A DNA stretch of 64,000 nt from Candidatus Nealsonbacteria bacterium (GTDB taxonomy: Bacteria; Patescibacteriota; Minisyncoccia; Minisyncoccales; DAOVPY01): assembly GCA_030628945.1 (NCBI GenBank), contig DAOVPY010000001.1:136124-200123 (forward strand), in the 5' to 3' direction. Numbering within the stretch: the stretch's first letter is position 1; the number at the start of each line of letters is the position of its first letter. Shown here one piece after another: positions 18,680-64,000 of this stretch. The notes beneath the pieces are model-generated. The model had not been told where the DNA came from, did not search any database, and saw only the letters and a program-made list of their open reading frames with translations. A program made the position numbers and the translations under genes.

Positions 18680-18680
18680 C

Positions 18681-37360: not shown

Positions 37361-37489
37361 TACGGCAGAATCATTATTATCGCAGGGTCAAAAATCCCTG
37401 TTTTTTGTTTCCAAATTTTATCAATTTATGTTATTATTGAATTGTAAAAATCAAATAGCCTAACCCTCGTAGATTTTCTATGAGATATG

Positions 37490-37643
37490 GCACAAAAAAC
37501 CCGCTACAGGATAGAAAGCTCGTCGTCAGAGCACCTGTAGCGGGTCATATCTCGAAAGGGGTATGGGTGGCGCAAGCCATCGCTGGCGGCGAGCTTTGTG
37601 CTTTTCGTTAGAAGGTATAAATAATAAAAAACCCGCTACAGGT
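37490..37643 (+). promoter_or_regulatory. Candidate structured 5' leader (three-element switch/pseudoknot) upstream of the metallophosphoesterase gene
   Basis: ACCCGCTACAGG occurs at 37499-37510 and 37631-37642. Its exact complement is at 37534-37545. AAAGCTCGTCG (37515-37525) is complementary to CGGCGAGCTTT (37587-37597). A GNRA hairpin GGTGGC-GCAA-GCCATC lies at 37566-37581. Confidence 0.35.
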
Positions 37644-49219: not shown

Positions 49220-49272
49220 TAAGGTATAATAAAGATGAAAAGTTAATTTATAAATAAGAAGTTAAAATTAAT

Positions 49273-50880
49273 ATGAAAAAATTAATATTATCAATCATTA
49301 TTTTATCACTTTGCCTTGGGACTGGGGTTTTCGCCCAAGGAACAGAACTTCCAAGTCCCGGGCTAACTCCTGACAGCCCTTTTTATTTTCTTGACACTCT
49401 GGGCGAGAAAATTGGAATGTTTTTTGCTTTTGGGGCTGAGAAAAAAGCAGAGAAAGCCATGCAATACGCCGGAGAAAAACTTATGGAAGTCAAAGCAATG
49501 GCAGAAAAGAACAAGCCCAAGGCCATAGAAAAAGCTAACCAGAAATATCAGGAATTTTTAGGCGCGGCTAATCAAAAAACGCAGGAAGCTAAAGAGCAGG
49601 GTAAAGATGTAGAGAGATTGGTCGTTTTGATTTCAGAAAAGACCTTAAAACATCAGGAAATTTTAGCAGAAGTATTTGAGAAAGTTTCGGAACAAGCAAA
49701 AGCCGGAATTGAAAAAGCGATTGAAATGTCGCAAAAAGGCTTTGAAGAAGCGATTAAGGCAGTTTCCGGAGCAAAGAAACAAGAGCTGCAAAAGAGGTTT
49801 GTAGAAATAACCGAAAAGGTCCCGGTTTATCCGGGCGCCTCAGAAGTTGAAGTTCCTTTAAGAATAAAACAAGAAATTCAACGCGATTTATCCCTAAATG
49901 TTGAGATAATAATTCATAGTTCGGACGACTCGCCCGAGAAAGTCGCAGATTGGTATGAATCTCAGCTTGTTAATAGGGGATGGGAGAAAATAATAACAGA
50001 AAAACACGAAATGCCTCAATACAAGAAAGACGAAATCGGTTTAGGGATAGTTGTAATTCTAGGAAAGGAGTTTGAAATAAAGGAGATAGAGGAAGAAAAA
50101 ACAGCAATTCTTCTTGTAAAAGATGAATTTGAGGCTTGGGAAAAATTTTTAGGAATTTCTAAGGAAGAAGGAGCATTAATAACTAAAACTGCTGATGATT
50201 GTGAAAAGATAACCTCCGGAGAAATAAAGGATACATGTTACCTCAACGTTGCATTGGAAACCAAAAATGCTAGTCTATGTGAAAAAACAATTAACAAGGA
50301 TGGGTGTTATGCTTCTATCGCAAGAGAAACTGAAGATGTTAGTCTCTGTGAAAAGGTAATGGACATCATTAACAAGAACGTGTGTTATATAGCTCTTGCC
50401 CAAAGAACTCAAGATAGTAACCTGTGTGAAAAAGCACCTAAGAAGGATATGTGTTACTGGAACCTTGCGCTACATGCTAAGGATAGTAGCTTGTGTGAGA
50501 AGATAATTGACAGTGCTATAAGATATAGCTGTATAGCAGCTAAAGAGGAAGAAATTTTGGCCCGAAATCGGCAGCGGAAGATTGATATAAACCAAATTGT
50601 TGTTGTAATGGAGGTGTATTACAGTGATAACAATCAATATTTTCAGTCCAAAATGATGCCCGCCACTATTAGAGATTATCTTCCAATAGTTCCAAAAGAT
50701 CCTTTAACTGGAAATCCCTATTTTTGGTTAGATAATACTTCGGGTTCTTCTACTGGTTGCGACGCTCAACACTATTGTGTTTGGGCAGAACTTGAGGGGG
50801 GTGGTTTTCAGGCGGCTTCGGAAAAAAGTCCCAGAGTTAAAGAGATAGACGCGCAACCGGCTAAATGTCCTTGTTGGTAA
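49273..50880 (+). CDS. Secreted chimeric protein: DUF5667-like module + two-Cys repeats + type IV pilin-like head domain
   Basis: The N-terminal 81 aa are near-identical to those of 46302-47804. There are 4-5 Cys repeats. The C-terminal ARNRQRKIDINQIVVVMEVYYSDNNQYF...PKDPLTG...C...C resembles the post-helix globular part of pilins/pseudopilins, but the prepilin helix is absent. Confidence 0.6.
   Translation: MKKLILSIIILSLCLGTGVFAQGTELPSPGLTPDSPFYFLDTLGEKIGMFFAFGAEKKAEKAMQYAGEKLMEVKAMAEKNKPKAIEKANQKYQEFLGAANQKTQEAKEQGKDVERLVVLISEKTLKHQEILAEVFEKVSEQAKAGIEKAIEMSQKGFEEAIKAVSGAKKQELQKRFVEITEKVPVYPGASEVEVPLRIKQEIQRDLSLNVEIIIHSSDDSPEKVADWYESQLVNRGWEKIITEKHEMPQYKKDEIGLGIVVILGKEFEIKEIEEEKTAILLVKDEFEAWEKFLGISKEEGALITKTADDCEKITSGEIKDTCYLNVALETKNASLCEKTINKDGCYASIARETEDVSLCEKVMDIINKNVCYIALAQRTQDSNLCEKAPKKDMCYWNLALHAKDSSLCEKIIDSAIRYSCIAAKEEEILARNRQRKIDINQIVVVMEVYYSDNNQYFQSKMMPATIRDYLPIVPKDPLTGNPYFWLDNTSGSSTGCDAQHYCVWAELEGGGFQAASEKSPRVKEIDAQPAKCPCW
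50194..50550 (+). repeat. Two-Cys repeat array (coding), 4-5 units
   Basis: The repeat consensus is the same as at 48372-49150. Confidence 0.65.
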
Positions 50881-50892
50881 AATAATAACCAA

Positions 50893-52068
50893 ATGATTAT
50901 ATCCAAAAAACAATCAGGTTTTGCTCCAATAGTAGTAATTTTAGTAATGGTGGTTTTAATTGTCGCGGGAGGAGGGGGATATTATTTTTATAAAAGTTCA
51001 CAAGAGCAGAAAGAAGCTGAAGGGGTTATACCAATCCAAACCGCAACTGCCAGTGATTGTGAAAAAGTAACTGATAGTTGGACGAAGGGCCATTGTTACC
51101 ATTACGTTGCATTAGAAACTAAAGATGGTAGTCTGTGTGAAAAGAGTTATTGGGCGGAGAAGTGTTACCTTTCGGTTGCAGTGGAAACTAAAGATATTAG
51201 CCTATGTGAAAAAATAATTAGCGGTGTTGACAAGAACAACTGTTACTATGGGATTGCATTAGAAACCAAAGATGCTAGCTTGTGTGAAAAAGTAACTACC
51301 ACGGTCATACCTTTTGGCAGTATAAGTGACAATCCTAGAAAGGACCAGTGTTATCGGGAAGTTGCATTAATAACTAAAAATAGTAGCTTGTGTGAAAAAA
51401 TAACTAACCGGACTGTTGCAAAGGACGAGTGTTATATTGATATTGCACAACAAACCGGAGATATTAGCCTATGTGAAAAAATAACTTATAGCTTGAGAAA
51501 GGGCCGGTGTTACATTGGGTTTGTAATAAAAACTAAAGACAGCAGTCTTTGTGAAAAAATAACTGACAATGTACAAGAACATATATGTTATGCCATCGTT
51601 GCAAACGACGCTAATATATGTGAAAAAAGTAATTCAAAGCTCAAGTGTTACAAAGACCTTGCCCTGGAAACTAAAGATGCCAGCCCCTGTGAAAAAATAA
51701 CTGACAGTTTCGGAAGGGATCAGTGTTATAAATTCGTTGCCCGAGAGGCTAGAGATGGTAGCCTATGCGGAAAAATAAATATCCGAAAATGGAGGGACGA
51801 GTGTTACGGCAACATTGGGCAAGAAACTAAAGATAGCAACCTGTGTGAAAAAATGAGCGCCGGTACTGGAAGGGATTGGTGTTATGGTGATGTTGCAGTA
51901 AAAACTCAAGACGCTAACCTTTGTGAAAAAATACTTAGTGCTAATAGTAAGGATTCATGTTATGTTGACGTTGCGCTAAGAACTAAAGACGCTAACCTTT
52001 GTGAAAAAATAATTGATAATTATAATAAGGAAAGATGTCACCGTGGACTCTTTCTAGAAATAAAATGA
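50893..52068 (+). CDS. Membrane-anchored protein made almost entirely of 13 two-Cys repeats
   Basis: The N-terminal anchor is QSGFAPIVVILVMVVLIVAGGGGYYFY. Thirteen C(E/G)K...CY units follow, giving 26 Cys. Confidence 0.65.
   Translation: MIISKKQSGFAPIVVILVMVVLIVAGGGGYYFYKSSQEQKEAEGVIPIQTATASDCEKVTDSWTKGHCYHYVALETKDGSLCEKSYWAEKCYLSVAVETKDISLCEKIISGVDKNNCYYGIALETKDASLCEKVTTTVIPFGSISDNPRKDQCYREVALITKNSSLCEKITNRTVAKDECYIDIAQQTGDISLCEKITYSLRKGRCYIGFVIKTKDSSLCEKITDNVQEHICYAIVANDANICEKSNSKLKCYKDLALETKDASPCEKITDSFGRDQCYKFVAREARDGSLCGKINIRKWRDECYGNIGQETKDSNLCEKMSAGTGRDWCYGDVAVKTQDANLCEKILSANSKDSCYVDVALRTKDANLCEKIIDNYNKERCHRGLFLEIK
51052..52060 (+). repeat. Two-Cys repeat array (coding), 13 units
   Basis: Counted by hand in the translation. 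Confidence 0.7.
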
Positions 52069-54113
52069 GTCAATCCCAAAAATCCCATGCCAAAATCAAA
52101 GATTTGCCGCAGGGCAGGCAATCAGGTTTTGTTCCTTTAATAGCCATTTTGATAGTTGCGGTTTTAATCGCTGCCGGAGGAACGGGTTATTATTTTTATT
52201 TGTCCCGCGACGAAGTTTTACAGGACAAAACCTCCCAGAAATTAGAAGAAATTGGTGAAGAGGCAGCTGATGAAACCGCGGATTGGAAAGTTTATGAGAA
52301 TGAAAAATATGGATATTTCTTTAAATATCCTTTGGAATGCAGATATGGTTCGTGGACATCCGAGATACCTTCCATAGAACACTTTTGTTTTTTAAGCATT
52401 AAAAATCCAGACGATGTACTTCTTAATATCCGGTATGTTGGCGAAGAAAATAAGCTGGTATCAGCGGCCTTTTCAGTTTGTCATTGTACCGTTTCTTGGG
52501 ATAAAGAGCCAGATTCTCCATGTTCTCCGGCCGACTTTTTGATTCATAATCCTCCTCCCGGTACAGAGCTTGTTAATTGGCTCAAGGAGAATTATAAGGG
52601 GTTAAATGGAGATATTCCGGACAAGCCAAATTTTGAAATTGATGGGATTCAGGCAGTAAAAGTTCTTAATGAGTTCCCGCTTGATTCCCCGAACGAGAGA
52701 ATCTTCTTTATTAAGAACGATAGACTTTTTGATATTACGTTATGGTATGTGGACAAAGAAAGCAATAAAGAATTGTATAATCAAATCCTTTTCACTTTTA
52801 AATTTGTAGAATTAGAAGAGGTTGATGAAGAAGCGCCAAAAGTTAAAGAGAAGCCGTATATTAAAGTAATTTCCCCTAATGGAGGGGAGAAATGGAAAGC
52901 AGGAGAGACCTATGATATTATATGGACAGCTAGTGGAGTTGATAAGGTTGTTATTGATGCAATGGGTTATGGACCAGGTAATGGTGGTGTGGAACTAGGA
53001 AAAATTGATGCTATCCTCGGAAAATTTTTTTGGAAAATTGATCCTAATGTTTCCTATGTGCCAGGAAATAATTTGAAGATAAGAATTACAGAGGCCAGTG
53101 ACTCAGCCTTCTATGATGAAAGCGATAATTATTTTAGTATTATTGAAAGAGAAACCAGTCCTTCTATAAATGAAATAGATATATTTCTGTTTAAAAATTT
53201 CAAAACTTGTATTGTTGGCGATAAATGTACTACTGGCAGCGATAAATGTATTTCTGTAACCAGAAAGGACGATATAGGTTATTTAGAATTTGAAGATAAT
53301 AATAATTTTAAGGCGCTTAAACCAAGCGATTCAACCATTAAGAATTATCAACAGAAAATTTGTTTAAATCCTGTTTTAGATAATACTGAAATAGAATATC
53401 TTAAAAATGAAGTAAATCAGTTTATTTCAGAAGTTAATCAGTGGACTAATGAAAGTATATCTCTTTTTCCGAAATTTATAGAAATTTCAGGCGAAATAAC
53501 AATGAGCAAATGGGGGCAGGGTCTGTATGTCGCTCCTTGGAATGCGGAGCCGTTGATAAAATCATTTATAACAAAAGACACGGATTTTGTTACGGTTTCC
53601 AATGATATGTATGATGACGTCCTTAATATAGTAATTCCGGTCCCTGCCTGCGGCGGTACCCTGGGCAGCGATGTTGGAGTTGGCGGAGCAGGTTATAATT
53701 GGGTTCCGAAAACTCATCCCGGTGTTTGGTTTGAGTGCGCTAACAAAGGTAATTATATGCACGAATGGTTAAATTTAATGGATTGGGTTTTGTTTAATGT
53801 ATCTGGCATAAGTGATATATATAAAGATGGTTATCCTTCCTGCGGGCAAGGAAACCAAGATACTTATTTATGGTTTCCCAGCGCTTCCTATAATTCTACA
53901 AAAGATCCAGATTTTGAAGCTTGTGGACAGAATTGGGGTAATTATTGTGAATCAGTTAAACCTGAGGATTGCAATTTAATATGGCATAAACATATTTTAA
54001 CAGAACACTATAATACGGGTACAAATTTGATTGGTAATTATTGTAGAAACGGAAAACAGGATTTTGATGAAACAGGGATTGATTGTGGAGGGAAATGCGT
54101 TCCTTGTATGTAG
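52065..54113 (+). CDS. Membrane-anchored surface protein with Ig-like module and Cys-rich C-terminal tail
   Basis: The start ATG overlaps the upstream TGA (ATGA). The anchor is QSGFVPLIAILIVAVLIAAGGTGYYFY. An Ig-like segment reads VISPNGGEKWKAGETYDIIWTA. The C terminus is NGKQDFDETGIDCGGKCVPCM. Confidence 0.6.
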   Translation: MSQSQKSHAKIKDLPQGRQSGFVPLIAILIVAVLIAAGGTGYYFYLSRDEVLQDKTSQKLEEIGEEAADETADWKVYENEKYGYFFKYPLECRYGSWTSEIPSIEHFCFLSIKNPDDVLLNIRYVGEENKLVSAAFSVCHCTVSWDKEPDSPCSPADFLIHNPPPGTELVNWLKENYKGLNGDIPDKPNFEIDGIQAVKVLNEFPLDSPNERIFFIKNDRLFDITLWYVDKESNKELYNQILFTFKFVELEEVDEEAPKVKEKPYIKVISPNGGEKWKAGETYDIIWTASGVDKVVIDAMGYGPGNGGVELGKIDAILGKFFWKIDPNVSYVPGNNLKIRITEASDSAFYDESDNYFSIIERETSPSINEIDIFLFKNFKTCIVGDKCTTGSDKCISVTRKDDIGYLEFEDNNNFKALKPSDSTIKNYQQKICLNPVLDNTEIEYLKNEVNQFISEVNQWTNESISLFPKFIEISGEITMSKWGQGLYVAPWNAEPLIKSFITKDTDFVTVSNDMYDDVLNIVIPVPACGGTLGSDVGVGGAGYNWVPKTHPGVWFECANKGNYMHEWLNLMDWVLFNVSGISDIYKDGYPSCGQGNQDTYLWFPSASYNSTKDPDFEACGQNWGNYCESVKPEDCNLIWHKHILTEHYNTGTNLIGNYCRNGKQDFDETGIDCGGKCVPCM

Positions 54114-54186
54114 TACAGGGACGGGCGAATTTTAATAAGAGAAATTTGATCGTAAAAAATAATCATTAAAAAAGTAAAAAAAGTTT

Positions 54187-57100
54187 ATGTTTGATTATTT
54201 CAAAAAATTATCCAAAGAAAAACGTTTTATTTTGATTCTCGTTATAATAGCAATTGTCGGCACCGGTTTTTATTTTTGGCAGAAAGGAGTTCCGACAGAT
54301 GTTAAGCCGGCATATAGCCAGACCTATAGATTAGTGAACGAGAAAATATCCCAATCAGCGGGCATTACGGTTTATTTGCCCGGGGCGATAGACAAATTAA
54401 TTGCCCAAGAAAATACTAAATTTTATCCTGAGATAGAAGGGCAGTGGATAGATTCAGGCAAAGAAAAAATAATTGTTTTTAAACCCGCGGAAAAGTTAAA
54501 ATTAGACAGATATTATTCCGCTCGGTTGGCTATCGCCCAATCAGAAGAAACCATTATCAAAGCGGATTTTTTGGCGGTTGAAGACCCAAAAATAATCGCT
54601 GTTTTTCCCAAAGAGAATTCAGAGGCGCCGGAAAACTCGGAAATTACCATTGTTTTTAACCGGCCCATGGTGCCGCTGACTACACTCGGCTATTTGGAAG
54701 AGCAAGAAGTTCCGGTGAAGATTACTCCCGCTACCAAGGGAAGATTTAAATGGATTACGACCAGAAATTTACAGTTCATTCCGGAAGAACGGTTGGCAAG
54801 GTCCTCTCATTATAAAGTTAAAATAAAATCAGGACTGGTTTCAATGGATGGTTTAGATGTAAAAGCGCAGGAAAAGGAATTTATTACCCGGAAGGCAAGA
54901 TACCTTAATTTAACCCAGGGCGAAATTATTTATAACCAGCCCGTTTCTATCTATTTTAACCAGCCAATGAATTTAGAAAAAACAAAAAGAGAAATATCTT
55001 TAAAAAATAATACCAATGGAAAAGAAATATCTTTTATCGCTAAATACGCGTCTGGCCCGGGTTTGCCAGAAACACAATTAGAAATCCTTGACCGCGGAGA
55101 CGACCGCGGAGAATACGATAAAGAAAAGGACTTGGTTTTCGGAAACATAAACATTGATAAATTATTCGCCGGATTAACCAACGCCTTTGGAATTAATTTG
55201 TGGCCTTTTAAAAATAAAGAAAAAAAGGAAGAGAAAATAAATCAGTCAATTCTCCAAATTTATCCCAAAGAAGACAGATTTGGCAGAGAAAAGTTTTGGG
55301 ACAGCAATAATGACTATTCTTTAACCATTAGCAAGGCGTATCCAGCGGAAGGCGATATTATTTTAGACGAAAGCCGGATTGCCAATATCCGCGCGTCCGG
55401 CATTATTAAATCCCTTATTGCTGAATCAGAAAGAACTAAATACGCGGAACCCGGGTTTTTTGACCCCCAGGGAAAACTCTGGATTAGTTTTTATGAAGAA
55501 ATTAACTTAGATAAAAGTAAAATAACAGCCTTGAAATTAAAAAACATTGGTTATGGGGAAAAATGCAAAGACGAGGAGCAAAGAGTTTCCAGGGACGTGG
55601 AATGCGAGAAAATAGCAGATAAAAAAAGAATTTATATTACTTTTAAAGAAGCGGAAATCGGCTTGCGGGAAACATTAGAGATTAACTTTGAAAAAATTGT
55701 TAATATTGACGGCTTGGCTCTTAATCAAGAGCCGATTTTTAGAGATATTGTTTCTTATCCCGAGTTTAAAATTCTAAGCGTCTTTCCCGGCAATAATTCA
55801 GCAGGCGCCTCGCTTACTCAATTTGTTTTTTGCAGCAATTCTTTGATTTCCGCGCCCGCAAAAGAAGATTTTGGAAAACACTTTGAGGCGAATCTGGACT
55901 ATGAATTATACTCCTGGGGAAATTCCTATAAAGTTAATCATTGGTATTCGGGCGAGAAATGCCGGGTGGGCGAGTTTCACACCAATATCAGGTACGGATT
56001 AATGCCTTTGGCTGATTACGAATTAAAATTTAAATTAGAAGATGTTTTTTCGCAGAAACTTGATTATTCTTCAGGTTTTACTACCGGCTCAATGCCAAGC
56101 AAGCATTTGAATTTTTTTCATTTTCAGGGACCATATAATGTTAGCTCGCCGCAAAAAACCAAATTGACTTACGCAGTCCAGAATATGGAGTATGTTAATA
56201 TGGAAATTTGCAAGCTGAAACCTTTGGATTTCCTTTATGAGATTGAGCAGCGGCCCGGCTCTCATCAATTTTCAGGCAGTATCAGCAATTGTCAAAAAAT
56301 AATCCGGGACAGGATTGAATTGCCAGAAAGATTTTGGCTCAAAAATTATTTTCAAGTGAATATTGAAGATTATTTTCAAGAGCCGATAGGCCATTATATT
56401 TTAACTTTTTCCCATCCAAATTATACAACTTATTTTTGGGAAAAAGGAGTAAAGACATACAGGCAGGCTTATGAGAGAAGCTATCTTACCATTACTAATT
56501 TAGCCGCGGTTGAAAAAAAGATTCAATCTCAATATGCCGGCTATGGCGCGAATGAACCGTTAACAACCGAACAATTGAATAGATTGGACAATCTTTATTG
56601 GATAACTGATATTGCCACATTAGAACCGGTTGAAGGCGCTAAAATAGATCTTTATCAAAAAATCTTGACTCAAAACTTTCGCTTAATTTTTGTTGGTTCT
56701 TTTACCACCAACAAACAGGGACTGGCTTTTACCGATGTAATTCATAATTTAAGAGGAGCAATTATTACCAAGGGCAAAGACAGCGCCATTATTCCGGGCA
56801 GCGAGAGCAAGCTGCAATGGGCAAGTTCGGCTTTTTCAGCCAGAAAAATTTATCTTTACATTGACAAGCCCATTTACCGGCCAAGCCACGAGGTTTTTAT
56901 CAAGGGCATTTATCGTCTCGGTTATGACGGCAATTATGAAATCTTTCAGAATAAAAAAATCAATCTAAAGGTTTTTAATTCCAAAAATGATGAAATTTTA
57001 AGCAAAGATATATCTATTAATGATTTCGGCACCTTTAACGCAAAACTTATTTTAGACAAGGGAGCTCCTCTGGGAATGTACCGAATTTGCGCTGAAAAAC

Positions 57101-60100
57101 ACAGCTGTATCTATTTTGACGTCCAGGAATACGCGCCTGCTCCTTTTGAAGTGAATGTTAAAAGCGACAAAGAAGAATATATTTCCAAAGACATTGCGGA
57201 TTTAGAGGTAGAAGCAAATTATTATTTCGGAGTGGCTCTGGAAAGAGGCGAGGTAAATTACACTATTAGTTCCCAAAATTATTATTTTGACAGATATTCA
57301 GACGGCTATTTCAATTTTGGGCAAAGATGGCATTATTGGTCGCCCTATGATTACGGAGACAAGTTTATTTTAAGAGGCAAAACCTATCTTGACGCCGAGG
57401 GCAAAGCAAAGATTTCTCAATTATTGGATTTCCCCGCTTTATTTAAAAATAAAGAAGACAGGAAAAGCAAACTCATTGTGGTGGATGTGACAGTGAAAAA
57501 TCCCCAGGGCAGGAGTGTTTCATCCCAAAAATCTTTTATTGTCCATAACGGCGAATTTTATTTGGGGCTGGCGCCGGATAAATCATTTTTAGGCAAGAAT
57601 GAGGCAGTGAAGATAAAAGTAAAATCAGTTGATATTACGGGCAAGGAAACCAAAGTAAAAAATATTACTTTAAGTTTGTACAAAATAGATTGGATTCACA
57701 GCAAGCGGCTTGGCGCGGACGGTGGCTATCATTACAAATGGGAAAAGCAAAGAGAATTAGTCAAAGAATATAAATTTAACACGGATAGAAAAGGAAATTA
57801 TGTCCAGGAATTAAAAATAGCAAAAGAGGGGAGTTACGAACTTGAAGCCAGCGCCTCTGATAAAAGAAATAATTTAGTTTGGACCACTTATAATCTCTAT
57901 GTTTACGGCGAGAGAGAAGTGAGCATCAAGCCGACCAAAGACACCAAATTAGAACTAGAAGCGGAAAAAATCAATCTGAACGTTGGCGATGAGGGAAGTA
58001 TTATAATTAAGTCGCCTTTTGCGAGAGCTAAAGCCCTTATTTGTATTGAGCGGGGCAGGATTTTTGATTTTCAAATCAAAGAGATTAAGGGCAATCTTTA
58101 TAATTATAAATTTATAGTTAAGGAAGAATATCTGCCCAATGTTTATGTGTCGGTTTTACTGCTTTCCGACGAGCCGGAAGTAAAGTTTGGAAAGGTTGAA
58201 TTCAAAATCAATACCGAGAGAAAAGAGCTTAATATAGAAGTTGAGACGAATAAAACCCATTATTTGCCGGGCGAGGAAGTAATTTTAGATATTTCCAGCA
58301 AAGATTATCAGGGGAAACCGGTTTCAGCCGAGGTTTCAGTGGCAGTGGTTGATTTGAGCGTTTTAGCCCTAAAAGGCAATCCGAAAAAGAATCCCTTGAT
58401 ATTTTTCTACAGCGGTTTTCCTTTAACTGTTTCCACTGCCAGCAATATAAAAGATATTCTTGTTGAGGTTGAAATTCCCACAAAGGGCGGCGGCGGCGGC
58501 GCTGAAGAAGCGCTGGCAAGAAAAAAGCGCGGCGTTTTCAAGGAGACCGCTTTTTGGCAGGCCGTGATAAGGACCGGCGCAAATGGAAAAGCACAGATTA
58601 AATTTACTTTGCCTGACAATTTGACTACCTGGCAAGCAGAAACAATCGGTTTGACCAAAGACACTAAATTAGGGGTTGCTTATCAGGAGTTTATTACCAG
58701 AAAGGAATTAATGGTTATTCCCTTAAAGCCCCGTTTTGTTGTGCCCGGGGATGTATTTTACATTGGAGCCAAGCTCTTTAATCAGAGCGGGGAAAAACAA
58801 AAATTAACAATAAGTTTTGATAGTTCAACACTAATTTTGAAAGAGAGCAAAAGAGAAAAGAAAATCACAATTAAGCCGGATAAAACCGGTGTAATTTATT
58901 TCCAAGTTCAAGCTCCTGCCCAGTTTGAAACAGGGGAGCATAAATTTACGCTTTCGGCAAAAAGCAAAAAATTAGAAGATACTGTTGAACAATCAATTAA
59001 TATTACCAGAAACAATACCTATGAAGTTGCGGCAACGGCTAATTATACCGCGGAGCCCCTCAGCAAAGAGTATGTTTTTCTGCCTGATAATATAAATAAA
59101 GACAAGGGCTGTCTTTCCATTAAGAGCAGCGCCACTTTGTGCGTTTTCCTTTCCGACGCCTTGAATTATTTATTAGGATTTCCTTACGGGTGTTCAGAGC
59201 AGATTGCCAGCCGTTTAAATGCGATTGCCATTGTAAAAACAGGACTTAATTTGCCGAACATCAGCGATAAATTTCAATTAGAAAAAATTAAATATCAAAA
59301 TAAAGAATATACCATAAGCGAAGTAGCGGAAATCGGTCTTGTAGAACTTTATAATAACCAGAAATATGACGGCGGATTTGCTTATTGGAGAGGAGGCGGA
59401 GAAAAATCCGATTTTTATCTGACCCTGCATATAACAGACACCCTTTATAATCTTTCCTTGGCCGGATTTGATATTAATCAGAATGCTCTGGACAGAGCCG
59501 TTAATTATCTGGAAACAGAAATTAAAAAGGGCAAATCACAATATGAGACAGAAGATATGTATAGAAACAGGCTCATTCTAACAGCTTATACTTTATTTCG
59601 CATTCCTGATTTTCAGAATAACTATTTCCTTAGACAAAAATTAATTCAAATAGCCCGGGACGATTTATTCCTGCAGGAAAAAATAAGCAACAGTTCCCTT
59701 GCCTATTTGGCTATTTCATTAAGCCACGGATTTGATCCAAGTTTGAAAAATAAAATTTTTGATATTCTGGATAATCAAATAGATATTGATTCCCGCGGCG
59801 CTTTTTTGGAAACCAATAAAAACATAATCTGGAGATATTACGAAACCCCGATTAAAAACACGGCCCTCTACTTAAAGGCCTTGGTTGCTGGCAAAAATGA
59901 AAGCCAGATTTTAGACAAGGTTTTAAGATGGCTTTTGAATTCCCGGGCAAAAGACGGGGCCTGGGGTTCAACTCATAATACCATTACAGTGATTGACGCT
60001 TTTACTGATTTTCTTAAATGGAAAAGAGAGACAGAATCAAATTTCCTTTTGGAATTCTTTATTAATGAGGAAATAGAAGGCAGTTTTGATTTTAATCCAG

Positions 60101-60711
60101 AGACGATTTTAGACCAGTTCAGAAAAGAAATTCCTTTGTCTAATTTAGAGTTTAATAAAAATAATACTCTTGAATTCTTAAAAACCAATCGCAATGATTT
60201 GCCTAACAACCTTTATTACGACCTTTCCTTGAAATATTATTTACCAGCAGAACAGATTCCTCCACGCGATGAGGGATTTAGCATTATCAGGGAATTTTAC
60301 GCCTTGGACGATAAGGAAAATAAAAATCCCCTTAAGCAGGCTCAGGTAGGGGATATTTTGCGCGGCCATTTGCAAATAACCGTACCAACAACGCGAAATT
60401 TCGCGATGATTGAGGATTATATTCCAGGGGGAATGGAAATAGTTAATTTGGATTTAGCCACCGAAGAAAAATCCTTGCGCCTGCGGGAAACAGAGTTAAA
60501 AGGCAGAGAACTGCGTCCTGATTTCAAGGAAATACGCGACGACAGGGTCTTTCTGTTCAAGGAAAATTTCAGCCCCGGAGTCTATGAATTTGATTATTAT
60601 GCAAGGGCGCTAATAAAAGGCACGTTTATTCATTTGCCGGCTGTGGTTTCAGAAATGTATTTCCCGGAAAATTTCGGCAGAACAAACGGAGGATATTTTG
60701 AGATTAAATAA
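54187..60711 (+). CDS. Bacterial alpha-2-macroglobulin family protein with intact thioester motif
   Basis: 2174 aa with an N-terminal signal-anchor helix and no lipobox Cys. It has a long run of MG/Ig-like beta domains. GFPYGCSEQIASRL carries the CxEQ thioester site (CSEQ at nt 59191-59202). Confidence 0.85.
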   Translation: MFDYFKKLSKEKRFILILVIIAIVGTGFYFWQKGVPTDVKPAYSQTYRLVNEKISQSAGITVYLPGAIDKLIAQENTKFYPEIEGQWIDSGKEKIIVFKPAEKLKLDRYYSARLAIAQSEETIIKADFLAVEDPKIIAVFPKENSEAPENSEITIVFNRPMVPLTTLGYLEEQEVPVKITPATKGRFKWITTRNLQFIPEERLARSSHYKVKIKSGLVSMDGLDVKAQEKEFITRKARYLNLTQGEIIYNQPVSIYFNQPMNLEKTKREISLKNNTNGKEISFIAKYASGPGLPETQLEILDRGDDRGEYDKEKDLVFGNINIDKLFAGLTNAFGINLWPFKNKEKKEEKINQSILQIYPKEDRFGREKFWDSNNDYSLTISKAYPAEGDIILDESRIANIRASGIIKSLIAESERTKYAEPGFFDPQGKLWISFYEEINLDKSKITALKLKNIGYGEKCKDEEQRVSRDVECEKIADKKRIYITFKEAEIGLRETLEINFEKIVNIDGLALNQEPIFRDIVSYPEFKILSVFPGNNSAGASLTQFVFCSNSLISAPAKEDFGKHFEANLDYELYSWGNSYKVNHWYSGEKCRVGEFHTNIRYGLMPLADYELKFKLEDVFSQKLDYSSGFTTGSMPSKHLNFFHFQGPYNVSSPQKTKLTYAVQNMEYVNMEICKLKPLDFLYEIEQRPGSHQFSGSISNCQKIIRDRIELPERFWLKNYFQVNIEDYFQEPIGHYILTFSHPNYTTYFWEKGVKTYRQAYERSYLTITNLAAVEKKIQSQYAGYGANEPLTTEQLNRLDNLYWITDIATLEPVEGAKIDLYQKILTQNFRLIFVGSFTTNKQGLAFTDVIHNLRGAIITKGKDSAIIPGSESKLQWASSAFSARKIYLYIDKPIYRPSHEVFIKGIYRLGYDGNYEIFQNKKINLKVFNSKNDEILSKDISINDFGTFNAKLILDKGAPLGMYRICAEKHSCIYFDVQEYAPAPFEVNVKSDKEEYISKDIADLEVEANYYFGVALERGEVNYTISSQNYYFDRYSDGYFNFGQRWHYWSPYDYGDKFILRGKTYLDAEGKAKISQLLDFPALFKNKEDRKSKLIVVDVTVKNPQGRSVSSQKSFIVHNGEFYLGLAPDKSFLGKNEAVKIKVKSVDITGKETKVKNITLSLYKIDWIHSKRLGADGGYHYKWEKQRELVKEYKFNTDRKGNYVQELKIAKEGSYELEASASDKRNNLVWTTYNLYVYGEREVSIKPTKDTKLELEAEKINLNVGDEGSIIIKSPFARAKALICIERGRIFDFQIKEIKGNLYNYKFIVKEEYLPNVYVSVLLLSDEPEVKFGKVEFKINTERKELNIEVETNKTHYLPGEEVILDISSKDYQGKPVSAEVSVAVVDLSVLALKGNPKKNPLIFFYSGFPLTVSTASNIKDILVEVEIPTKGGGGGAEEALARKKRGVFKETAFWQAVIRTGANGKAQIKFTLPDNLTTWQAETIGLTKDTKLGVAYQEFITRKELMVIPLKPRFVVPGDVFYIGAKLFNQSGEKQKLTISFDSSTLILKESKREKKITIKPDKTGVIYFQVQAPAQFETGEHKFTLSAKSKKLEDTVEQSINITRNNTYEVAATANYTAEPLSKEYVFLPDNINKDKGCLSIKSSATLCVFLSDALNYLLGFPYGCSEQIASRLNAIAIVKTGLNLPNISDKFQLEKIKYQNKEYTISEVAEIGLVELYNNQKYDGGFAYWRGGGEKSDFYLTLHITDTLYNLSLAGFDINQNALDRAVNYLETEIKKGKSQYETEDMYRNRLILTAYTLFRIPDFQNNYFLRQKLIQIARDDLFLQEKISNSSLAYLAISLSHGFDPSLKNKIFDILDNQIDIDSRGAFLETNKNIIWRYYETPIKNTALYLKALVAGKNESQILDKVLRWLLNSRAKDGAWGSTHNTITVIDAFTDFLKWKRETESNFLLEFFINEEIEGSFDFNPETILDQFRKEIPLSNLEFNKNNTLEFLKTNRNDLPNNLYYDLSLKYYLPAEQIPPRDEGFSIIREFYALDDKENKNPLKQAQVGDILRGHLQITVPTTRNFAMIEDYIPGGMEIVNLDLATEEKSLRLRETELKGRELRPDFKEIRDDRVFLFKENFSPGVYEFDYYARALIKGTFIHLPAVVSEMYFPENFGRTNGGYFEIK

Positions 60712-60721
60712 AATAAAATTT

Positions 60722-62032
60722 ATGAGCCAATCTTTTTCTAAAATTTGGGTTGCGGTTATTGCTGCTGTTTTTATTATCGGAGGAATTTTAGTTTGGCATT
60801 ATGATTGGTTTCCGGAAGAAAAAACTGGAGCGCCAGAGATTAAAGAGTTGAAACTAAATTTAAAAACTACAAAGTTAGCAACAATTCCCATCGGTCTTTA
60901 CGCTGAACATATTACTTTCGGCCCGAACGGTAAAAAAGTCGCGTACGCGGCAGAAAAGGAAGAGAAATGGTATATAATTCTAAATGGAGAAGAGCATGGA
61001 CCTTATGAAAATATCTGTTGGGGAACAGAGCCTACTTTTAGTTCCGATGGCGAGAGATTTGCCTACGGGGCGAAAAGGGAGAGCGAATATTTTATAGTTC
61101 TTGACGGAATAGAGAAAAGAACTTACGATAACGTTTACTGTTTTCATTTTAGCCCCGATGGCGAAAATTATTCTTACAAAGCGAAGAGAGGAGATGAGAT
61201 ATTTATAGTGTTAAACGGAGAAGAGGGTAAACCTTACGATAGAATTTGGCACTCTGCTTTTAGTCCAGATGGTAAAAGTTTTGTTTATAAAGCAAAGCAA
61301 GGCGATAACTTTTTTGTAGTTTTAGATGGAAAAGAAATGGGCCCCTATGATAATATTTTAAGCGAGATACCTGTTTTTAGTTCTAATAGTGAGAAATTAG
61401 CTTACGCAGCAGAAGAAGAAGGCAAACAATTTGTGGTAATTAACGGAAAAAAAGAGAAAGGTTATGATAATATTTGGGATATTACCTTTAGCCCGGACAG
61501 CGAAAATTTGGCTTATGCGGCAAGAAAGGGGAAATTTTCCTTTACAATTTTAAATGGAAAGGAAGGCGAAAGTTATTATGAGAATCTTTGGGGTTTAATT
61601 TTTAGTCCCGATAGCAAAAGATTTGCTTTCAAGGTTCAACAAAAAATCGAAGGGGAACTCAAAGAGTTTGCGGTTTTAGACGGAAAAATAGGCGAGAAGT
61701 ATTCTACCGTTAGTTGGCTTACCTTTGGCCCCGATAGTAGAAAATTTGCTTATCGAGCGGATGAAAGCCGGATTATTATTTTTGATGAGAAAAAAAGCAC
61801 AATTTATGATGGCATGGGAATGCTTGCTTTCAGCCCCGACAGCAACAATTTGGCTTATGCAATGGAAGAAAACTTTAAAAATTTTATAGCCCTTAACGGA
61901 GAGAAAGTCCGGCCTTATGATTTTCTTGCGACAAATCTTACTTTTACTTCTGATAGTAAATATCTTTATTACGGAATTCAAATCAGCAATGAGGTTTGGT
62001 GGATAGTAGATAAAATCGAGAATTTCAAATAA
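60722..62032 (+). CDS. Membrane-anchored PD40/TolB-like beta-propeller repeat protein (~10 repeats)
   Basis: The ATG at 60722 is preferred over the TTG at 60698. The repeat unit is FSPD(G/S)xx(L/F)AYxAxxxxxxFxVLNGxExxxYDxI, about 38-40 aa long. Confidence 0.6.
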   Translation: MSQSFSKIWVAVIAAVFIIGGILVWHYDWFPEEKTGAPEIKELKLNLKTTKLATIPIGLYAEHITFGPNGKKVAYAAEKEEKWYIILNGEEHGPYENICWGTEPTFSSDGERFAYGAKRESEYFIVLDGIEKRTYDNVYCFHFSPDGENYSYKAKRGDEIFIVLNGEEGKPYDRIWHSAFSPDGKSFVYKAKQGDNFFVVLDGKEMGPYDNILSEIPVFSSNSEKLAYAAEEEGKQFVVINGKKEKGYDNIWDITFSPDSENLAYAARKGKFSFTILNGKEGESYYENLWGLIFSPDSKRFAFKVQQKIEGELKEFAVLDGKIGEKYSTVSWLTFGPDSRKFAYRADESRIIIFDEKKSTIYDGMGMLAFSPDSNNLAYAMEENFKNFIALNGEKVRPYDFLATNLTFTSDSKYLYYGIQISNEVWWIVDKIENFK

Positions 62033-62054
62033 TTGAATCTAAATATAAAGAACT

Positions 62055-64000
62055 TCATTGATTGATATAAACAGCGATTATTTCCTGAAAGCCATTATCG
62101 CTTTCGGCTTTTATTTGAAATTGACCGGTTTCAGTTGGAATAAAAATAGCGGTTTTGCTTCTGCTTAAAAATTCATTATTTATAGACCATTTTACATTTT
62201 GTTTGGCTTGTAAAATTATTTTAAAGTTTTTTCCCGAGAGAAAAGCGTCTCCGTCGTGTGGATGAAGAATTAAAGAAACATCTCTCTCTTTCAGGGCGTT
62301 TAGCGAGTGTTCGTAATCATCATCTGGCAAGCCGTATTCTATCCCGCTTTGAGCGGGGTAAAACTCCTTTAAAAGAGCAAATTCAAAAGGAGTTTTTTTA
62401 TTGTATTCTGAGTTTAAAAGCAGTTCCATTGTCTCTGCCCAGATTCTGCCGGCTCCAAGCTGGCCCGAAATTCCGCCCATAGGAGCATTGTCGTGATTGC
62501 CGAGCCAGACCCCGACCAGGAAGTCGGGAGTATAGCCGATTACCCAGCTGTCTCTGAAATCCCGGGAAGTGCCGGTTTTTAAGGCGTAATTTTGCTGGAA
62601 CAAATTGAAATCGCTTTTTAAACCAAATTGTTCAATTCCTGTTTTGCGATCGCTTAGGATTTTATTGATTAGCTGGATATATTTTGGATTGGCAATCTTT
62701 TTCTCAGAACATGGATTTTGAGCATTGTATATTTTCAAATCCTTCAAAATTCCATTATTCGGGAAAATAGTAAAATATCTGGATAAATTTAATAAGTCCA
62801 TCTCTAAAACGCCCAGGGCTATTCCTAATTGGTAATTTTCTAAATTCTGAATCGGTTTAAATTCCAGGTCCTGCTCCAAAAATTTATAAAAATCTTCCAA
62901 TCCGACATATTCCAAAACCTTTACCGCCGGCACATTCAAGCTGTTGCTTAAAGCGTAATGCAAATTTACTTCGCCGCGGTATTTATAATCAAAGTTTTTA
63001 GGATAAAGAGGGAAACCAATGGCAGTGATATATTTATATTCTCTGTCGTCTGCCAAAGTATAAGGCCTTAAATCTTTTTCAAACGCTTTAAGAAAGACAA
63101 AAGGTTTGATGGTTGAGCCAATGGGCCGGGGCTCTAATAACATATTAATTTGGCAGCCCTCTTCAAAAGATTTTGGGTTTGGCGAGCCGACAAGGGTTAA
63201 GATTTCATTTTCCGGCAATTTAATCACTGCTACGGCTCCATTTTTAACGTTTTTCGCCTTTAGGTCTGCGATGTTTCTTTCCACTATTTCTCTTATTTTT
63301 TCAGTGAGTTCCTTGTCAATGGTTAACGAGTGGTCATCGGAGGAATCGTCAATAAAATTTTGAATCTCAAAATATGTATTGCTGGAATGAGAATATTGCC
63401 CCATGGTTTCTTTTACAACACAAGAATCTATCAGAAATAATTCATGGCTTAAGCCCAATCTTTGGGCTAAAGCAAGGGCAATTTCTTTGTTTTTCGCTTT
63501 AGCCGGATTATTTTTGGTTGGGCTGCTGATAGCGGCTAAGAGCTGCAAAATTTGCCCGTCAGCAAGTAAATCCGGCGATAAATTAAAATAAAGCCGGCTG
63601 GCTTCTGTTAATCCCCGGGCTTGATTGCCGAAATAAACAGAATTAACATACATTTTTAAAATCGTTTCTTTGCTTTGAAAAAGTTCCAGACCAAAAGTAT
63701 AAAATGCCTCAACAATTTTATTTTTCAGATTTCTTTCCAGCTCTTTTCCCTTTAAAATCTTTACCAATTGCTGGGTGATGGTGCTTGAAGCTCTTTTGGG
63801 ACAGATATTAAAATATCCCAAGGCGGCTTTATATGTGGTCCAGGGATTAAAGCCAAAATGAAAATAAAAATATTTATCTTCTTTTTTGAGCAAAAGCTTT
63901 TCAAATCCAGAAGGAATTTCATCTGAATATCTTGCCCAAGAGCCATTTTTATCGCGTTCAATAAAAATTATTTTTCCCGTTCTGTCCCTGATTAGCAAAG
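62055..64000 (-). CDS. pbpC: Penicillin-binding protein 1C (bifunctional GT51 transglycosylase/transpeptidase), N terminus outside the window
   Basis: GT51 motifs are EDKYFYFHFG and RASSTITQQLVK. Transpeptidase motifs are STIK, SLN and KTGT. A PBP1C-type C-terminal beta domain is present. The frame runs off the window edge. Confidence 0.85.
   Translation of the reverse strand, partial: LLIRDRTGKIIFIERDKNGSWARYSDEIPSGFEKLLLKKEDKYFYFHFGFNPWTTYKAALGYFNICPKRASSTITQQLVKILKGKELERNLKNKIVEAFYTFGLELFQSKETILKMYVNSVYFGNQARGLTEASRLYFNLSPDLLADGQILQLLAAISSPTKNNPAKAKNKEIALALAQRLGLSHELFLIDSCVVKETMGQYSHSSNTYFEIQNFIDDSSDDHSLTIDKELTEKIREIVERNIADLKAKNVKNGAVAVIKLPENEILTLVGSPNPKSFEEGCQINMLLEPRPIGSTIKPFVFLKAFEKDLRPYTLADDREYKYITAIGFPLYPKNFDYKYRGEVNLHYALSNSLNVPAVKVLEYVGLEDFYKFLEQDLEFKPIQNLENYQLGIALGVLEMDLLNLSRYFTIFPNNGILKDLKIYNAQNPCSEKKIANPKYIQLINKILSDRKTGIEQFGLKSDFNLFQQNYALKTGTSRDFRDSWVIGYTPDFLVGVWLGNHDNAPMGGISGQLGAGRIWAETMELLLNSEYNKKTPFEFALLKEFYPAQSGIEYGLPDDDYEHSLNALKERDVSLILHPHDGDAFLSGKNFKIILQAKQNVKWSINNEFLSRSKTAIFIPTETGQFQIKAESDNGFQEIIAVYINQ

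What the first reader, a model, noticed from the sequence alone, without database searches (positions are those of the whole stretch)
54187..64000. Thioester-competent alpha-2-macroglobulin + PD40 propeller + convergent PBP1C in a CPR-like, TM-anchored format
Bacterial A2M (E. coli YfhM type) and PBP1C are a known linked pair, interpreted as a periplasmic protease-trap/repair module of diderm bacteria.

- Here a 2174-aa A2M retains the CxEQ thioester site (GCSEQ, nt 59191-59202).
- It lacks a lipobox and starts with a signal-anchor helix instead.
- It is followed by a TM-anchored protein with about 10 PD40-like repeats.
- PBP1C is encoded convergently rather than in the same operon.

If the organism is a Patescibacterium, a lineage generally thought to lack an outer membrane, then a membrane-tethered A2M exposed at the cell surface would be a protease shield at a host-symbiont interface. 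The inserted propeller protein would be a lineage-specific third component.
Basis: partly seen in the sequence, partly recalled or inferred. Interest (0 to 1): 0.6.

Follow-up and report, generated by a model that had tools for sequence, protein, structure and literature searches.

The report
Membrane-anchored protease trap beside wall synthase
A tiny symbiotic (Patescibacteria) bacterium carries the known bacterial alpha-2-macroglobulin plus PBP1C gene pair in the membrane-anchored, extra-long form that is standard for its phylum, and the propeller gene lying between the two is a one-off insertion rather than a third partner.

Summary
Window 54187-60711 (+) encodes a 2174-aa bacterial alpha-2-macroglobulin (A2M). 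It has CSEQ at nt 59191-59202, an N-terminal transmembrane anchor and no lipobox. Next comes a TM-anchored protein with ten ~38-aa PD40-like repeats (60698-62032, +). A convergent class A PBP follows (62055 to past the window end, -).

The contig is Patescibacteria, Parcubacteria/Nealsonbacteria-like. Both the A2M relatives and the FtsH encoded in the same window show this.

The A2M-PBP pairing is not special to this genome. Among 70 informative Patescibacteria species, a PBP1C-type gene sits next to the A2M in 59, usually convergent with only 7-30 bp between the stop codons. TM anchoring, a ~500-aa N-terminal extension and the thioester motif are family-wide.

The PD40 gene is absent from every other locus examined, including the closest relatives at 71-80% A2M identity. 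The junction between the two genes holds unrelated cargo in other species. The "third component" idea therefore meets its own refutation criterion.

Most likely function, inferred from homology to E. coli YfhM/PbpC: a surface-tethered, bait-triggered covalent protease trap that works with a peptidoglycan synthase, here in a lineage thought to lack an outer membrane.

Verdict: a new variant of a known kind, of modest interest.

The parts
54187..60711 (+). Alpha-2-macroglobulin gene, class 1 (YfhM/ECAM type), 2174 aa
   Evidence: ORF. Pfam finds Big_5, MG2, bMG6, A2M_BRD, A2M, TED and bMG10. BLASTP is colinear with E. coli YfhM, aa 885-2161 against 385-1638, E = 6e-33. The closest solved structures are ECAM and SaA2M.
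54214..54282 (+). N-terminal signal-anchor (TM) helix, aa ~10-32, after a short Lys-rich cytoplasmic tail; no lipobox
   Evidence: Sequence. AF2 models a helix at residues 10-32. A TM helix is present in 111/115 full-length homologs and a lipobox in 0/115.
54283..56838 (+). N-terminal extension, aa 33-884: about seven beta-sandwich (Ig/MG-like) domains plus a disordered insert at aa 291-349. It is ~500 aa longer than the equivalent part of E. coli YfhM.
   Evidence: AF2 model with pLDDT 80.5, all-beta. Foldseek hits ECAM, SaA2M and the ECAM MG0-NIE-MG1 fragment 4zjg. Pfam finds only Big_5 at aa 132-223. The extension recurs in 110 clusters at E<=1e-30; the full-length hits are mostly 2.1-2.3-kaa proteins with the match at the same N-terminal position, the rest are fragments.
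58363..58527 (+). Putative bait region, aa ~1393-1447: a flexible loop ending in TKGGGGG..ALARKKRG
   Evidence: This is the only long low-confidence loop of the C-terminal half model (aa 1393-1441, pLDDT < 50). It lies at the end of A2M_BRD, just before the A2M domain. It aligns with the ECAM segment GGDGDELKRGGKP. Its C-terminal part varies among homologs.
59191..59202 (+). Thioester motif CSEQ (C1669-Q1672) in FPYGCSEQ
   Evidence: It aligns with YPYGCLEQ of YfhM. The Cys is kept in 109/115 homologous proteins and in 76/84 loci.
59140..60024 (+). Thioester domain (TED), helical, aa ~1652-1946
   Evidence: Pfam TED_complement at aa 1656-1941. AF2 models an alpha-helical block.
60274..60669 (+). 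C-terminal MG10 domain (bMG10), aa 2030-2161, with the invariant EMYFPENF motif just after it (aa 2156-2163)
   Evidence: Pfam bMG10, E = 3.5e-26. Invariant columns in the alignment.
60698..62032 (+). Accessory gene: TM-anchored protein with ten PD40-like repeats. The TTG start at 60698 follows a GGAGG 5 nt upstream and overlaps the A2M stop codon by 14 nt.
   Evidence: ORF and sequence. Repeat count. Pfam PD40. Absent from all other loci. Best homologs elsewhere reach only 33-41% identity in many phyla. GC3 is 0.31 against 0.37-0.38 for its neighbours.
62055..64000 (-). PBP1C-type class A penicillin-binding protein. It is 694 aa in full; the first 47 codons lie beyond the window end. GT51 domain ~63489-63959, transpeptidase ~62523-63236, C-terminal Ig-like domain ~62058-62342.
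   Evidence: Pfam and NCBIfam. Full length from the identical contig. Catalytic motifs are invariant in 51 orthologs. BiPBP_C is found in 33/51 orthologs. The ortholog profile scores E. coli PbpC above MrcA above MrcB.

Best explanation
This is the Patescibacteria version of the known class-1 bacterial alpha-2-macroglobulin / PBP1C pair, with an unrelated accessory gene inserted between the two.

Proposed mechanism, by homology to E. coli YfhM (ECAM) and PbpC:
- The A2M is held on the outer face of the cytoplasmic membrane by an uncleaved N-terminal helix.
- About seven extra Ig/MG-like domains form a long stalk.
- The stalk carries the canonical MG ring, a flexible bait loop (aa ~1393-1447), and a buried Cys1669-Gln1672 thioester in the TED.
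- A foreign protease that cuts the bait triggers a conformational change. The exposed thioester then captures the protease covalently.
- The neighbouring bitopic PBP1C-type enzyme (GT51 + transpeptidase + BiPBP_C-like domain) makes or repairs peptidoglycan in the same zone.
- The lineage is thought to lack an outer membrane, so the pair would guard the exposed wall and membrane surface rather than a periplasm.

The PD40-repeat protein is a genome-specific addition. It became translationally coupled to the A2M, but it is not part of the conserved module.

Shown here: gene identities, motifs, predicted fold, taxonomy, and conservation of synteny.
Inferred: thioester formation, protease trapping, cooperation with the PBP, and surface exposure.
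For: **A2M identity and fold**
- Domain order and thioester motif.
- Colinear alignment to YfhM, including YPYGCLEQ against FPYGCSEQ.
- The AF2 C-terminal half (pLDDT 82) matches the native forms best: ECAM 5a42 (TMq 0.57) and SaA2M 4u48 (0.55). The protease-activated forms score lower: 4ziq (0.40) and 4rtd (0.35).
- There is a single long disordered loop at the bait position.

**Anchoring**
- A TM anchor is family-wide and a lipobox is never present.

**Synteny**
- Of 80 species-level Patescibacteria loci, 70 are informative.
- 42 have an orthologous PBP convergent within 700 bp. 7 have it convergent with a 1.5-7 kb insertion. 4 have it on the same strand and adjacent. 1 has it upstream.
- 5 more divergent loci carry an adjacent same-strand PBP. 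It matches BiPBP_C above Pfam's cut-off in 4 (Peribacteria L079/L081/L083, Magasanikbacteria L070) and below it (21.3 vs 26.8 bits) in L085, whose PBP ORF is cut at the contig start.

**PBP identity**
- Catalytic residues are invariant in 51 orthologs.
- BiPBP_C is found in 33/51 orthologs.
- The ortholog profile scores PbpC at 205 bits, MrcA at 183 and MrcB at 162.

**Literature**
- The class-1 definition (CxEQ plus juxtaposition to PBP1c) and the defence-plus-repair model come from PMC3328433 and PMC4498604.
- The outer membrane is proposed to be absent in CPR bacteria (bioRxiv 10.1101/2025.01.22.634366).

**Taxonomy**
-.
Against: - No biochemical evidence exists for any CPR A2M. Thioester formation cannot be read from the sequence.
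- The N-terminal part of the bait-position loop is unusually conserved (0.89 mean column identity), whereas bait regions are classically variable.
- Several lineages have lost the Cys yet keep the PBP next door (L015, L023, L051, L057). The linkage therefore does not depend strictly on covalent trapping.
- The pair is mostly convergent and so not co-transcribed, unlike the E. coli yfhM-pbpC operon.
- The window's own PBP falls below the NCBIfam PBP_1c cut-off, and it does not match BiPBP_C at E<=0.01 on its own.
- The only cultured relative found, Minisyncoccus archaeiphilus, has a thioester-less A2M with no PBP nearby.
Confidence: 0.7

Rival explanations
1. Three-component module: the TM-anchored PD40 propeller is a lineage-specific partner that works with the A2M and PBP1C, for example as a substrate or host-binding platform.
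For: In this genome the PD40 gene overlaps the A2M stop by 14 nt and has a GGAGG 5 nt before its TTG start. It is therefore probably co-transcribed and translationally coupled. It is also membrane-anchored and extracytoplasmic, like its neighbours.
Against: It is absent from all 84+ other A2M loci, including relatives at 71-80% identity where the PBP abuts the A2M. The junction holds unrelated cargo elsewhere: transposase-like and HTH genes, PGA_cap, OMP decarboxylase plus Band_7. Its homologs are a generic repeat family spread over many phyla at <=41% identity. Its GC3 is lower than that of the conserved neighbours.
Confidence: 0.07
2. The A2M is mainly a structural partner or regulator of PBP1C, a long scaffold that positions or activates the synthase. 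Protease trapping is secondary or dispensable.
For: The linkage is conserved across very divergent Patescibacteria, with A2M identity down to 28-30%. It persists in four lineages whose A2M has lost the thioester Cys. The literature has proposed a direct contact between the A2M C-terminal region and PBP1c (PMC3328433). The C-terminal MG10 motif EMYFPENF is invariant.
Against: The thioester Cys is kept in about 90% of family members, which argues for selection on the trapping chemistry. The predicted fold matches native, trap-competent A2Ms. No interaction data exist.
Confidence: 0.15
3. The surface-tethered thioester protein is a covalent adhesin that fixes the episymbiont to its host cell. This would resemble the thioester adhesins of Gram-positive pathogens (comparison from my own knowledge, not tested here).
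For: The architecture is a long stalk of Ig-like domains on a membrane anchor with a reactive thioester at the distal end. The lifestyle is episymbiotic. Large surface proteins are implicated in host contact in CPR bacteria (PMC8080830).
Against: The architecture is a full A2M with bait region, CUB/TED and MG10, where the thioester is buried until the bait is cleaved. It is not the small exposed TED of the adhesins. The conserved partner is a wall synthase, not adhesion machinery.
Confidence: 0.06

Closest known systems
E. coli YfhM (ECAM) / Salmonella SaA2M with PbpC (class-1 bacterial alpha-2-macroglobulin + PBP1C)
   Same: The MG-BRD-CUB/TED-MG10 order is the same, and the CxEQ thioester sits at the aligned position (YPYGCLEQ against FPYGCSEQ). 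These are the best matches by sequence and by fold. In both cases the neighbouring gene is a PBP1C-type synthase, and the protein is tethered to the cytoplasmic membrane.
   Different: Identity is only 21%. The anchor is a TM helix instead of signal peptide plus lipobox. The N-terminus has ~500 extra residues, about four more beta-sandwich domains. The genes are convergent, 3'-to-3', rather than forming a yfhM-pbpC operon. The host lineage is thought to lack an outer membrane, so no periplasm bounded by an outer membrane is expected.
Class-2 bacterial A2M (YfaS / MagD type, in a multi-lipoprotein operon)
   Same: It belongs to the same superfamily and shares the MG domains. JGI labels many CPR homologs with the COG name 'YfaS (alpha-2-macroglobulin family)'.
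   Different: Class 2 usually lacks CxEQ and sits in an operon with four lipoproteins (PMC3328433). Here CxEQ is present, the partner is PBP1C, and no such operon is seen.
A2M-domain membrane proteins of Vampirococcus lugosii (CPR, Absconditabacteria)
   Same: They are large (1895 and 2368 aa) membrane-localised A2M-domain proteins in a CPR bacterium. [quoted passage not shown]
   Different: That paper makes only a domain-level remark. It does not describe a thioester, a TM anchor, an N-terminal extension or linkage to PBP1C. Orthology to the present family was not tested here.
PD40 / TolB-like beta-propeller repeat proteins; TmcD family
   Same: The ten repeats score as PD40 (PF07676, 62.5 bits against a cut-off of 20.9). 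They also resemble the repeats of NCBIfam TmcD_fam (173.7 bits).
   Different: The scores are far below the equivalog cut-offs: TmcD 440, TolB 343. There is no Tol-Pal or Tmc gene context. The anchor is a single TM helix. No close orthologs were found anywhere.

Membership tests
Class-1 bacterial alpha-2-macroglobulin (YfhM/ECAM type) | MG domains, bait-region domain, CUB/TED and C-terminal MG10, in order | tested here: met
   Pfam domains. AF2 models match ECAM and SaA2M best. Colinear BLASTP to YfhM.
Class-1 bacterial alpha-2-macroglobulin (YfhM/ECAM type) | CxEQ thioester motif in the TED | tested here: met
   CSEQ at aa 1669-1672, nt 59191-59202. Conserved in ~90% of the family.
Class-1 bacterial alpha-2-macroglobulin (YfhM/ECAM type) | Gene juxtaposed to a PBP1C gene | tested here: met
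   The PBP lies 1.3 kb downstream and convergent in the window. It is adjacent in 59/70 informative Patescibacteria species.
Class-1 bacterial alpha-2-macroglobulin (YfhM/ECAM type) | Signal peptide plus lipobox (lipoprotein anchor to the inner membrane) | tested here: not met
   No Cys or lipobox in the N-terminus; a TM helix is present instead. A lipobox occurs in 0/115 homologs. The outcome is the same, tethering to the cytoplasmic membrane, but the means differ.
Class-1 bacterial alpha-2-macroglobulin (YfhM/ECAM type) | A formed thioester and bait-triggered covalent protease trapping | not testable with these tools
   This needs protein biochemistry: methylamine sensitivity, thiol release and protease adducts.
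PBP1C (PbpC) | GT51 glycosyltransferase and transpeptidase domains with catalytic motifs | tested here: met
   Pfam Transgly and Transpeptidase. E87/D88, S342xxK345, S400xN402 and K521TG are invariant in 51 orthologs.
PBP1C (PbpC) | C-terminal BiPBP_C domain (PF06832) | tested here: inconclusive
   The window copy gives no hit at E<=0.01. However, 33/51 orthologs match, best 5.4e-8. Four adjacent PBPs of divergent lineages exceed Pfam's cut-off. A profile of the C-terminus aligns to PbpC 724-765 only weakly.
PBP1C (PbpC) | Score above the NCBIfam equivalog cut-off (TIGR02073, 494 bits) | tested here: not met
   The truncated window copy scores 334 bits. PBP_1c is still the best model, ahead of PBP_1a_fam at 248 bits.
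TolB / PD40 beta-propeller | PD40 repeats | tested here: met
   PF07676 scores 62.5 bits against a cut-off of 20.9, summed over weak repeats. There are ten repeats of 35-41 aa.
TolB / PD40 beta-propeller | TolB equivalog score and Tol-Pal gene context | tested here: not met
   TIGR02800 scores 27 bits against 343. There are no tol/pal neighbours.
Patescibacteria (CPR) origin of the contig | Housekeeping and locus genes most similar to Patescibacteria genomes | tested here: met
   All named FtsH top hits are Parcubacteria, Nealsonbacteria or Paceibacterota at 72-87%. The 80 A2M loci come from Patescibacteria MAGs, apart from a few odd record labels (two 'Gammaproteobacteria', one 'Pacearchaeota'). 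ClpB, FtsH and ComEC lie on the same contig.

The most novel reading that the evidence does not exclude
The A2M-PBP1C partnership does not depend on an outer membrane, and partly not on the thioester either. In Patescibacteria a ~2150-aa membrane-anchored A2M on a long Ig-domain stalk and a PBP1C form an ancient, phylum-wide envelope-integrity unit. Its 3'-to-3' gene arrangement is conserved. The A2M may directly scaffold or regulate the synthase at the symbiont-host interface. [quoted passage not shown]
Probability: 0.15. Interest if true: 0.6.

Novelty: new variant of a known kind. Interest (0 to 1): 0.35.

Why it matters
The class-1 A2M/PBP1C pair has been explained as a periplasmic defence-and-repair system of Gram-negative bacteria. 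Here the pair is conserved in roughly 85% of the informative Patescibacteria species sampled. It appears in a distinct format: TM anchor, +500-aa stalk, and mostly convergent genes whose stop codons nearly touch. This suggests the partnership serves envelope integrity more generally. It also gives a concrete, widely distributed surface protein to test in episymbiont-host interactions.

The practical lesson for this scan is narrower. The genome-specific oddity, the PD40 gene, is accessory cargo at an insertion-prone junction. It is not a new system component.

Tried and rejected
- **NCBIfam on the A2M.** No family at E<=0.01, so it gave no subtype.
- **Promoter and terminator scan of 49000-64000.** Counts are not above shuffled expectation (50 vs 41.2 +/- 7.2; 18 vs 14.4 +/- 4.7). 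No transcription-unit claim rests on it.
- **Homology search with the PD40 protein.** It returned only a generic repeat family at <=41% identity in many phyla and no ortholog.
- **Exact-sequence look-ups for organism names.** They gave none for the window's proteins. For distant N-extension hits they gave almost none. One is labelled Patiriisocius sp. on a 16.8-kb MAG contig, which I treat as uninformative.
- **Budd et al. 2004.** It could not be read. The class definitions come from later papers that cite it.
- **BLASTP of the PBP against E. coli PBPs.** It is ambiguous: PbpC scores 142 bits in one piece, MrcA about 177 bits summed over three.
- **Minisyncoccus archaeiphilus as a cultured test bed.** Its A2M homolog lacks the Cys and has no PBP within 10 kb.
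- **Small antisense ORFs inside the A2M** (58229-58519 and 58407-58664, minus strand). I treat them as chance ORFs.

Full report
**What is there.**

The region holds three long ORFs: 54187-60711 (+, 2174 aa), 60698-62032 (+, 444 aa from TTG) and 62055-63998 (-, running off the window).

The first ORF is a bacterial alpha-2-macroglobulin.
- Pfam finds Big_5 (aa 132-223), MG2 (887-969), bMG6 (1134-1226), A2M_BRD (1255-1395), A2M (1454-1542), TED (1656-1941) and bMG10 (2030-2161).
- The N-terminus has a short Lys-rich tail, one hydrophobic helix and no cysteine, so there is no lipobox.

The second ORF encodes a TM helix followed by exactly ten 35-41-aa PD40-like repeats. Its TTG start follows a GGAGG by 5 nt and overlaps the A2M stop codon by 14 nt.

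The third ORF is a class A PBP with Transgly and Transpeptidase domains. Its best NCBIfam model is PBP_1c. The identical 316-kb metagenomic contig shows it is 694 aa with an N-terminal TM helix.

**Whose genome.**

The A2M has hundreds of full-length relatives of about 2150 aa at 48-72% identity. Wherever a source names them, they are Parcubacteria, Nealsonbacteria or the Patescibacteria group.

A scan of one genome per GTDB species returned 80 loci.
- Almost all are Patescibacteria MAGs: Parcubacteria/Paceibacterota, Nealson-, Moran-, Falkow-, Ryan-, Sung-, Staskawicz-, Magasanik-, Gracili- and Peribacteria.
- A few records carry odd labels: two are called 'Gammaproteobacteria' and one 'Pacearchaeota'.
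- One locus is the cultured Minisyncoccus archaeiphilus.

As an independent marker, the FtsH encoded at 16622-18541 has only Parcubacteria, Nealsonbacteria or Paceibacterota among its named top hits, at 72-87% identity. The contig also carries ClpB and ComEC. An outer membrane is proposed to be absent in this group (bioRxiv 10.1101/2025.01.22.634366).

**What kind of A2M.**

The literature distinguishes two classes (PMC3328433; PMC4498604).
- Class 1 has CxEQ and lies next to PBP1c. E. coli YfhM/ECAM is the example.
- Class 2 usually lacks CxEQ and sits in a lipoprotein operon.

The window protein belongs with class 1.
- It aligns colinearly with E. coli YfhM from aa 885 to 2161 (YfhM 385-1638) at 21% identity, E = 6e-33. 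The alignment pairs FPYGCSEQ with YPYGCLEQ.
- YfhM and the Salmonella A2M are the best solved-structure matches by sequence.

AlphaFold2 models of the two halves, each built from 62 aligned homologs, have mean pLDDT of 80.5 and 82.0.

The C-terminal half:
- It matches native ECAM (5a42, TMq 0.57) and native SaA2M (4u48, 0.55).
- Protease-activated ECAM scores lower (4ziq 0.40, 4rtd 0.35).
- It has a helical TED.
- It has one long disordered loop at aa 1393-1441, at the position of the bait region.
- The loop's C-terminal part, EIPTKGGGGGAEEALARKKRG, varies among homologs. Its N-terminal part is strongly conserved.

The N-terminal half:
- It is a TM helix (residues 10-32) followed by a chain of about nine beta-sandwich domains.
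- It has a disordered insert at aa 291-349.
- It matches ECAM, SaA2M and the ECAM MG0-NIE-MG1 fragment.

Relative to YfhM there are about 500 extra N-terminal residues, roughly four more domains. This extension recurs in 110 clusters at 50% identity (E <= 1e-30). The full-length hits are mostly 2.1-2.3-kaa proteins with the match at the same N-terminal position, and the rest are fragments. It is a hallmark of this A2M family and not of this gene alone.

Across 115 full-length homologs:
- 111 have the TM helix. The other four appear truncated at the called start.
- None has a lipobox.
- 109 keep CxEQ.

**Is the PBP a PBP1C?**

The window copy alone is borderline.
- Its PBP_1c score is 334 bits against a cut-off of 494.
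- It gives no BiPBP_C hit at E <= 0.01.

At the family level the call is much stronger.
- 51 orthologs adjacent to A2Ms share invariant GT51 and transpeptidase motifs (E87/D88, S342xxK345, S400xN402, K521TG).
- 33 of the 51 match the PBP1C-specific BiPBP_C domain, best E = 5.4e-8.
- A profile of the 51 scores E. coli PbpC (205 bits) above MrcA (183) and MrcB (162).
- Four A2M-adjacent PBPs of more divergent lineages, Peribacteria and Magasanikbacteria, exceed Pfam's BiPBP_C cut-off. A fifth, cut at the contig start, falls below it (21.3 vs 26.8 bits).
- A second, non-adjacent class A PBP in one genome lacks the domain.

**How conserved is the arrangement?**

Of the 80 species-level loci, 70 are informative.
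- 42 have the orthologous PBP convergent and within 700 bp of the A2M stop, typically 7-30 bp away.
- 7 have it convergent but separated by 1.5-7 kb.
- 4 have it downstream on the same strand.
- 1 has it upstream.
- 5 of the loci first counted as lacking an ortholog carry an adjacent same-strand PBP (BiPBP_C above Pfam's cut-off in four of them).

The linkage therefore holds in 59 of 70. In E. coli the two genes are co-directional and contiguous.

**The PD40 gene.**

tblastn with its product finds nothing in any locus other than the two copies of this same genome.
- In the closest relatives the PBP abuts the A2M: L007 (72% A2M identity), L056 (74%), L080 (80%), and the contigs carrying P0003 and P0004 (71-72%).
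- In other close relatives the junction holds unrelated genes. The P0005 contig has a PGA_cap gene. The P0002 contig has OMP decarboxylase plus Band_7.
- The seven species with larger gaps carry a transposase-like gene, HTH or defence-like genes, or unknown secreted proteins.
- The PD40 protein's best homologs anywhere reach 33-41% identity and come from many phyla. That pattern fits a generic repeat family.
- Its GC3 (0.31) resembles the genome-private upstream genes (0.29-0.33). It is lower than the A2M (0.38) and the PBP (0.37).

I conclude that the gene is accessory cargo that landed at an insertion-tolerant 3'-3' junction and became coupled to the A2M's translation.

**Mechanism.**

By homology, the most likely function is a membrane-tethered, bait-triggered covalent protease trap held away from the membrane on a long Ig-domain stalk. 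It would work alongside a bitopic peptidoglycan synthase, protecting and repairing the exposed envelope of an episymbiont.

The same defensive idea has already been voiced for A2M-domain membrane proteins of the CPR bacterium Vampirococcus (PMC8080830). It was the only such mention that my literature searches found.

Three observations complicate the simple story.
- Part of the bait-position loop is conserved.
- The genes are not co-transcribed in most species.
- Four lineages have lost the thioester Cys yet keep the PBP next door, while four others have lost both features.

These leave room for a rival reading in which the A2M scaffolds or regulates PBP1C. A covalent-adhesin role is a more remote possibility.

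**Verdict.**

- The sequence observation is confirmed.
- The taxonomic premise is confirmed.
- The A2M/PBP1C reading is confirmed, and it turns out to be phylum-typical rather than special to this window.
- The "third component" is refuted.
- The Patescibacteria format is a real variant of a known system and seems not to have been described as such. It consists of a TM anchor, a +500-aa stalk, conserved convergent pairing and no outer membrane.
- These proteins are nonetheless already annotated as A2M family in public MAGs, and the function is inferred only.
- Interest is modest (0.35).

Noticed in passing
window 47810-49219, 49273-50880, 50893-52068 (+): Three consecutive genes encode membrane-anchored or secreted proteins with roughly 5-12 tandem ~36-aa Cys-rich repeats of the form D.CY..VA.ETKD.SLCEKI. 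No Pfam or NCBIfam family covers the repeat. 49273-50880 also has a DUF5667 N-terminus nearly identical to that of the PrsA-like gene at 46302-47804. Only weak partial tblastn matches to 50893-52068 (24-28% identity) turned up in two of the ~90 related loci; otherwise absent.
   Followed up: partly
window 52035-54113 (+): A 692-aa TM-anchored protein with no family match and a Cys-rich C-terminus ending GIDCGGKCVPCM lies directly upstream of the A2M. It is essentially private to this genome (only short, weak matches in L067).
   Followed up: no
window 37457-37581 (+): Rfam LOOT RNA motif, 90.2 bits against a gathering score of 46.4, immediately before and overlapping the start of ORF 37563-38645.
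   Followed up: no
window 18606-18680 (+): A tRNA-Ile with anticodon UAU lies in a cluster of eight tRNA genes spread over 18.6-30.3 kb.
   Followed up: no
L015, L018, L025, L027, L055, L073, L077, L092, L094 (junction between A2M and PBP): The 3'-3' junction of the convergent A2M and PBP genes is a recurrent insertion site in Patescibacteria. Its cargo is unrelated from one species to the next: transposase-like, HTH or defence-like genes, PGA_cap, OMP decarboxylase plus Band_7, and unknown secreted proteins. In most species the two stop codons are only 7-30 bp apart, so the transcripts probably overlap antisense.
   Followed up: partly
L086 9770-17047 (Minisyncoccus archaeiphilus PMX.108 chromosome): The only cultured relative found has a 2425-aa A2M homolog at 35% identity. 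Its thioester Cys is replaced (YPYLSSEQ), and no PBP1C-type gene lies within 10 kb.
   Followed up: partly
L015, L023, L051, L057: These A2M homologs have lost the thioester Cys (GSEQ or YSEQ) yet still have the PBP1C-type gene as a convergent neighbour.
   Followed up: partly
proteins P0324, P0335, P0340, P0348 (homologs of the window FtsH): Some close homologs of the window's FtsH (unnamed in the sources) are about 1080 aa and carry intein/LAGLIDADG domains (PF14528, PF14890) inserted in the protease.
   Followed up: no
L001 19966-23452, just beyond the window end: Downstream of the PBP on the same contig are a GH38 alpha-mannosidase (873 aa) and a HAD/S6PP-like hydrolase. A GH130/GH32N-like gene lies at window 45409-46299. 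That is unexpected glycan-processing capacity for a reduced genome.
   Followed up: no
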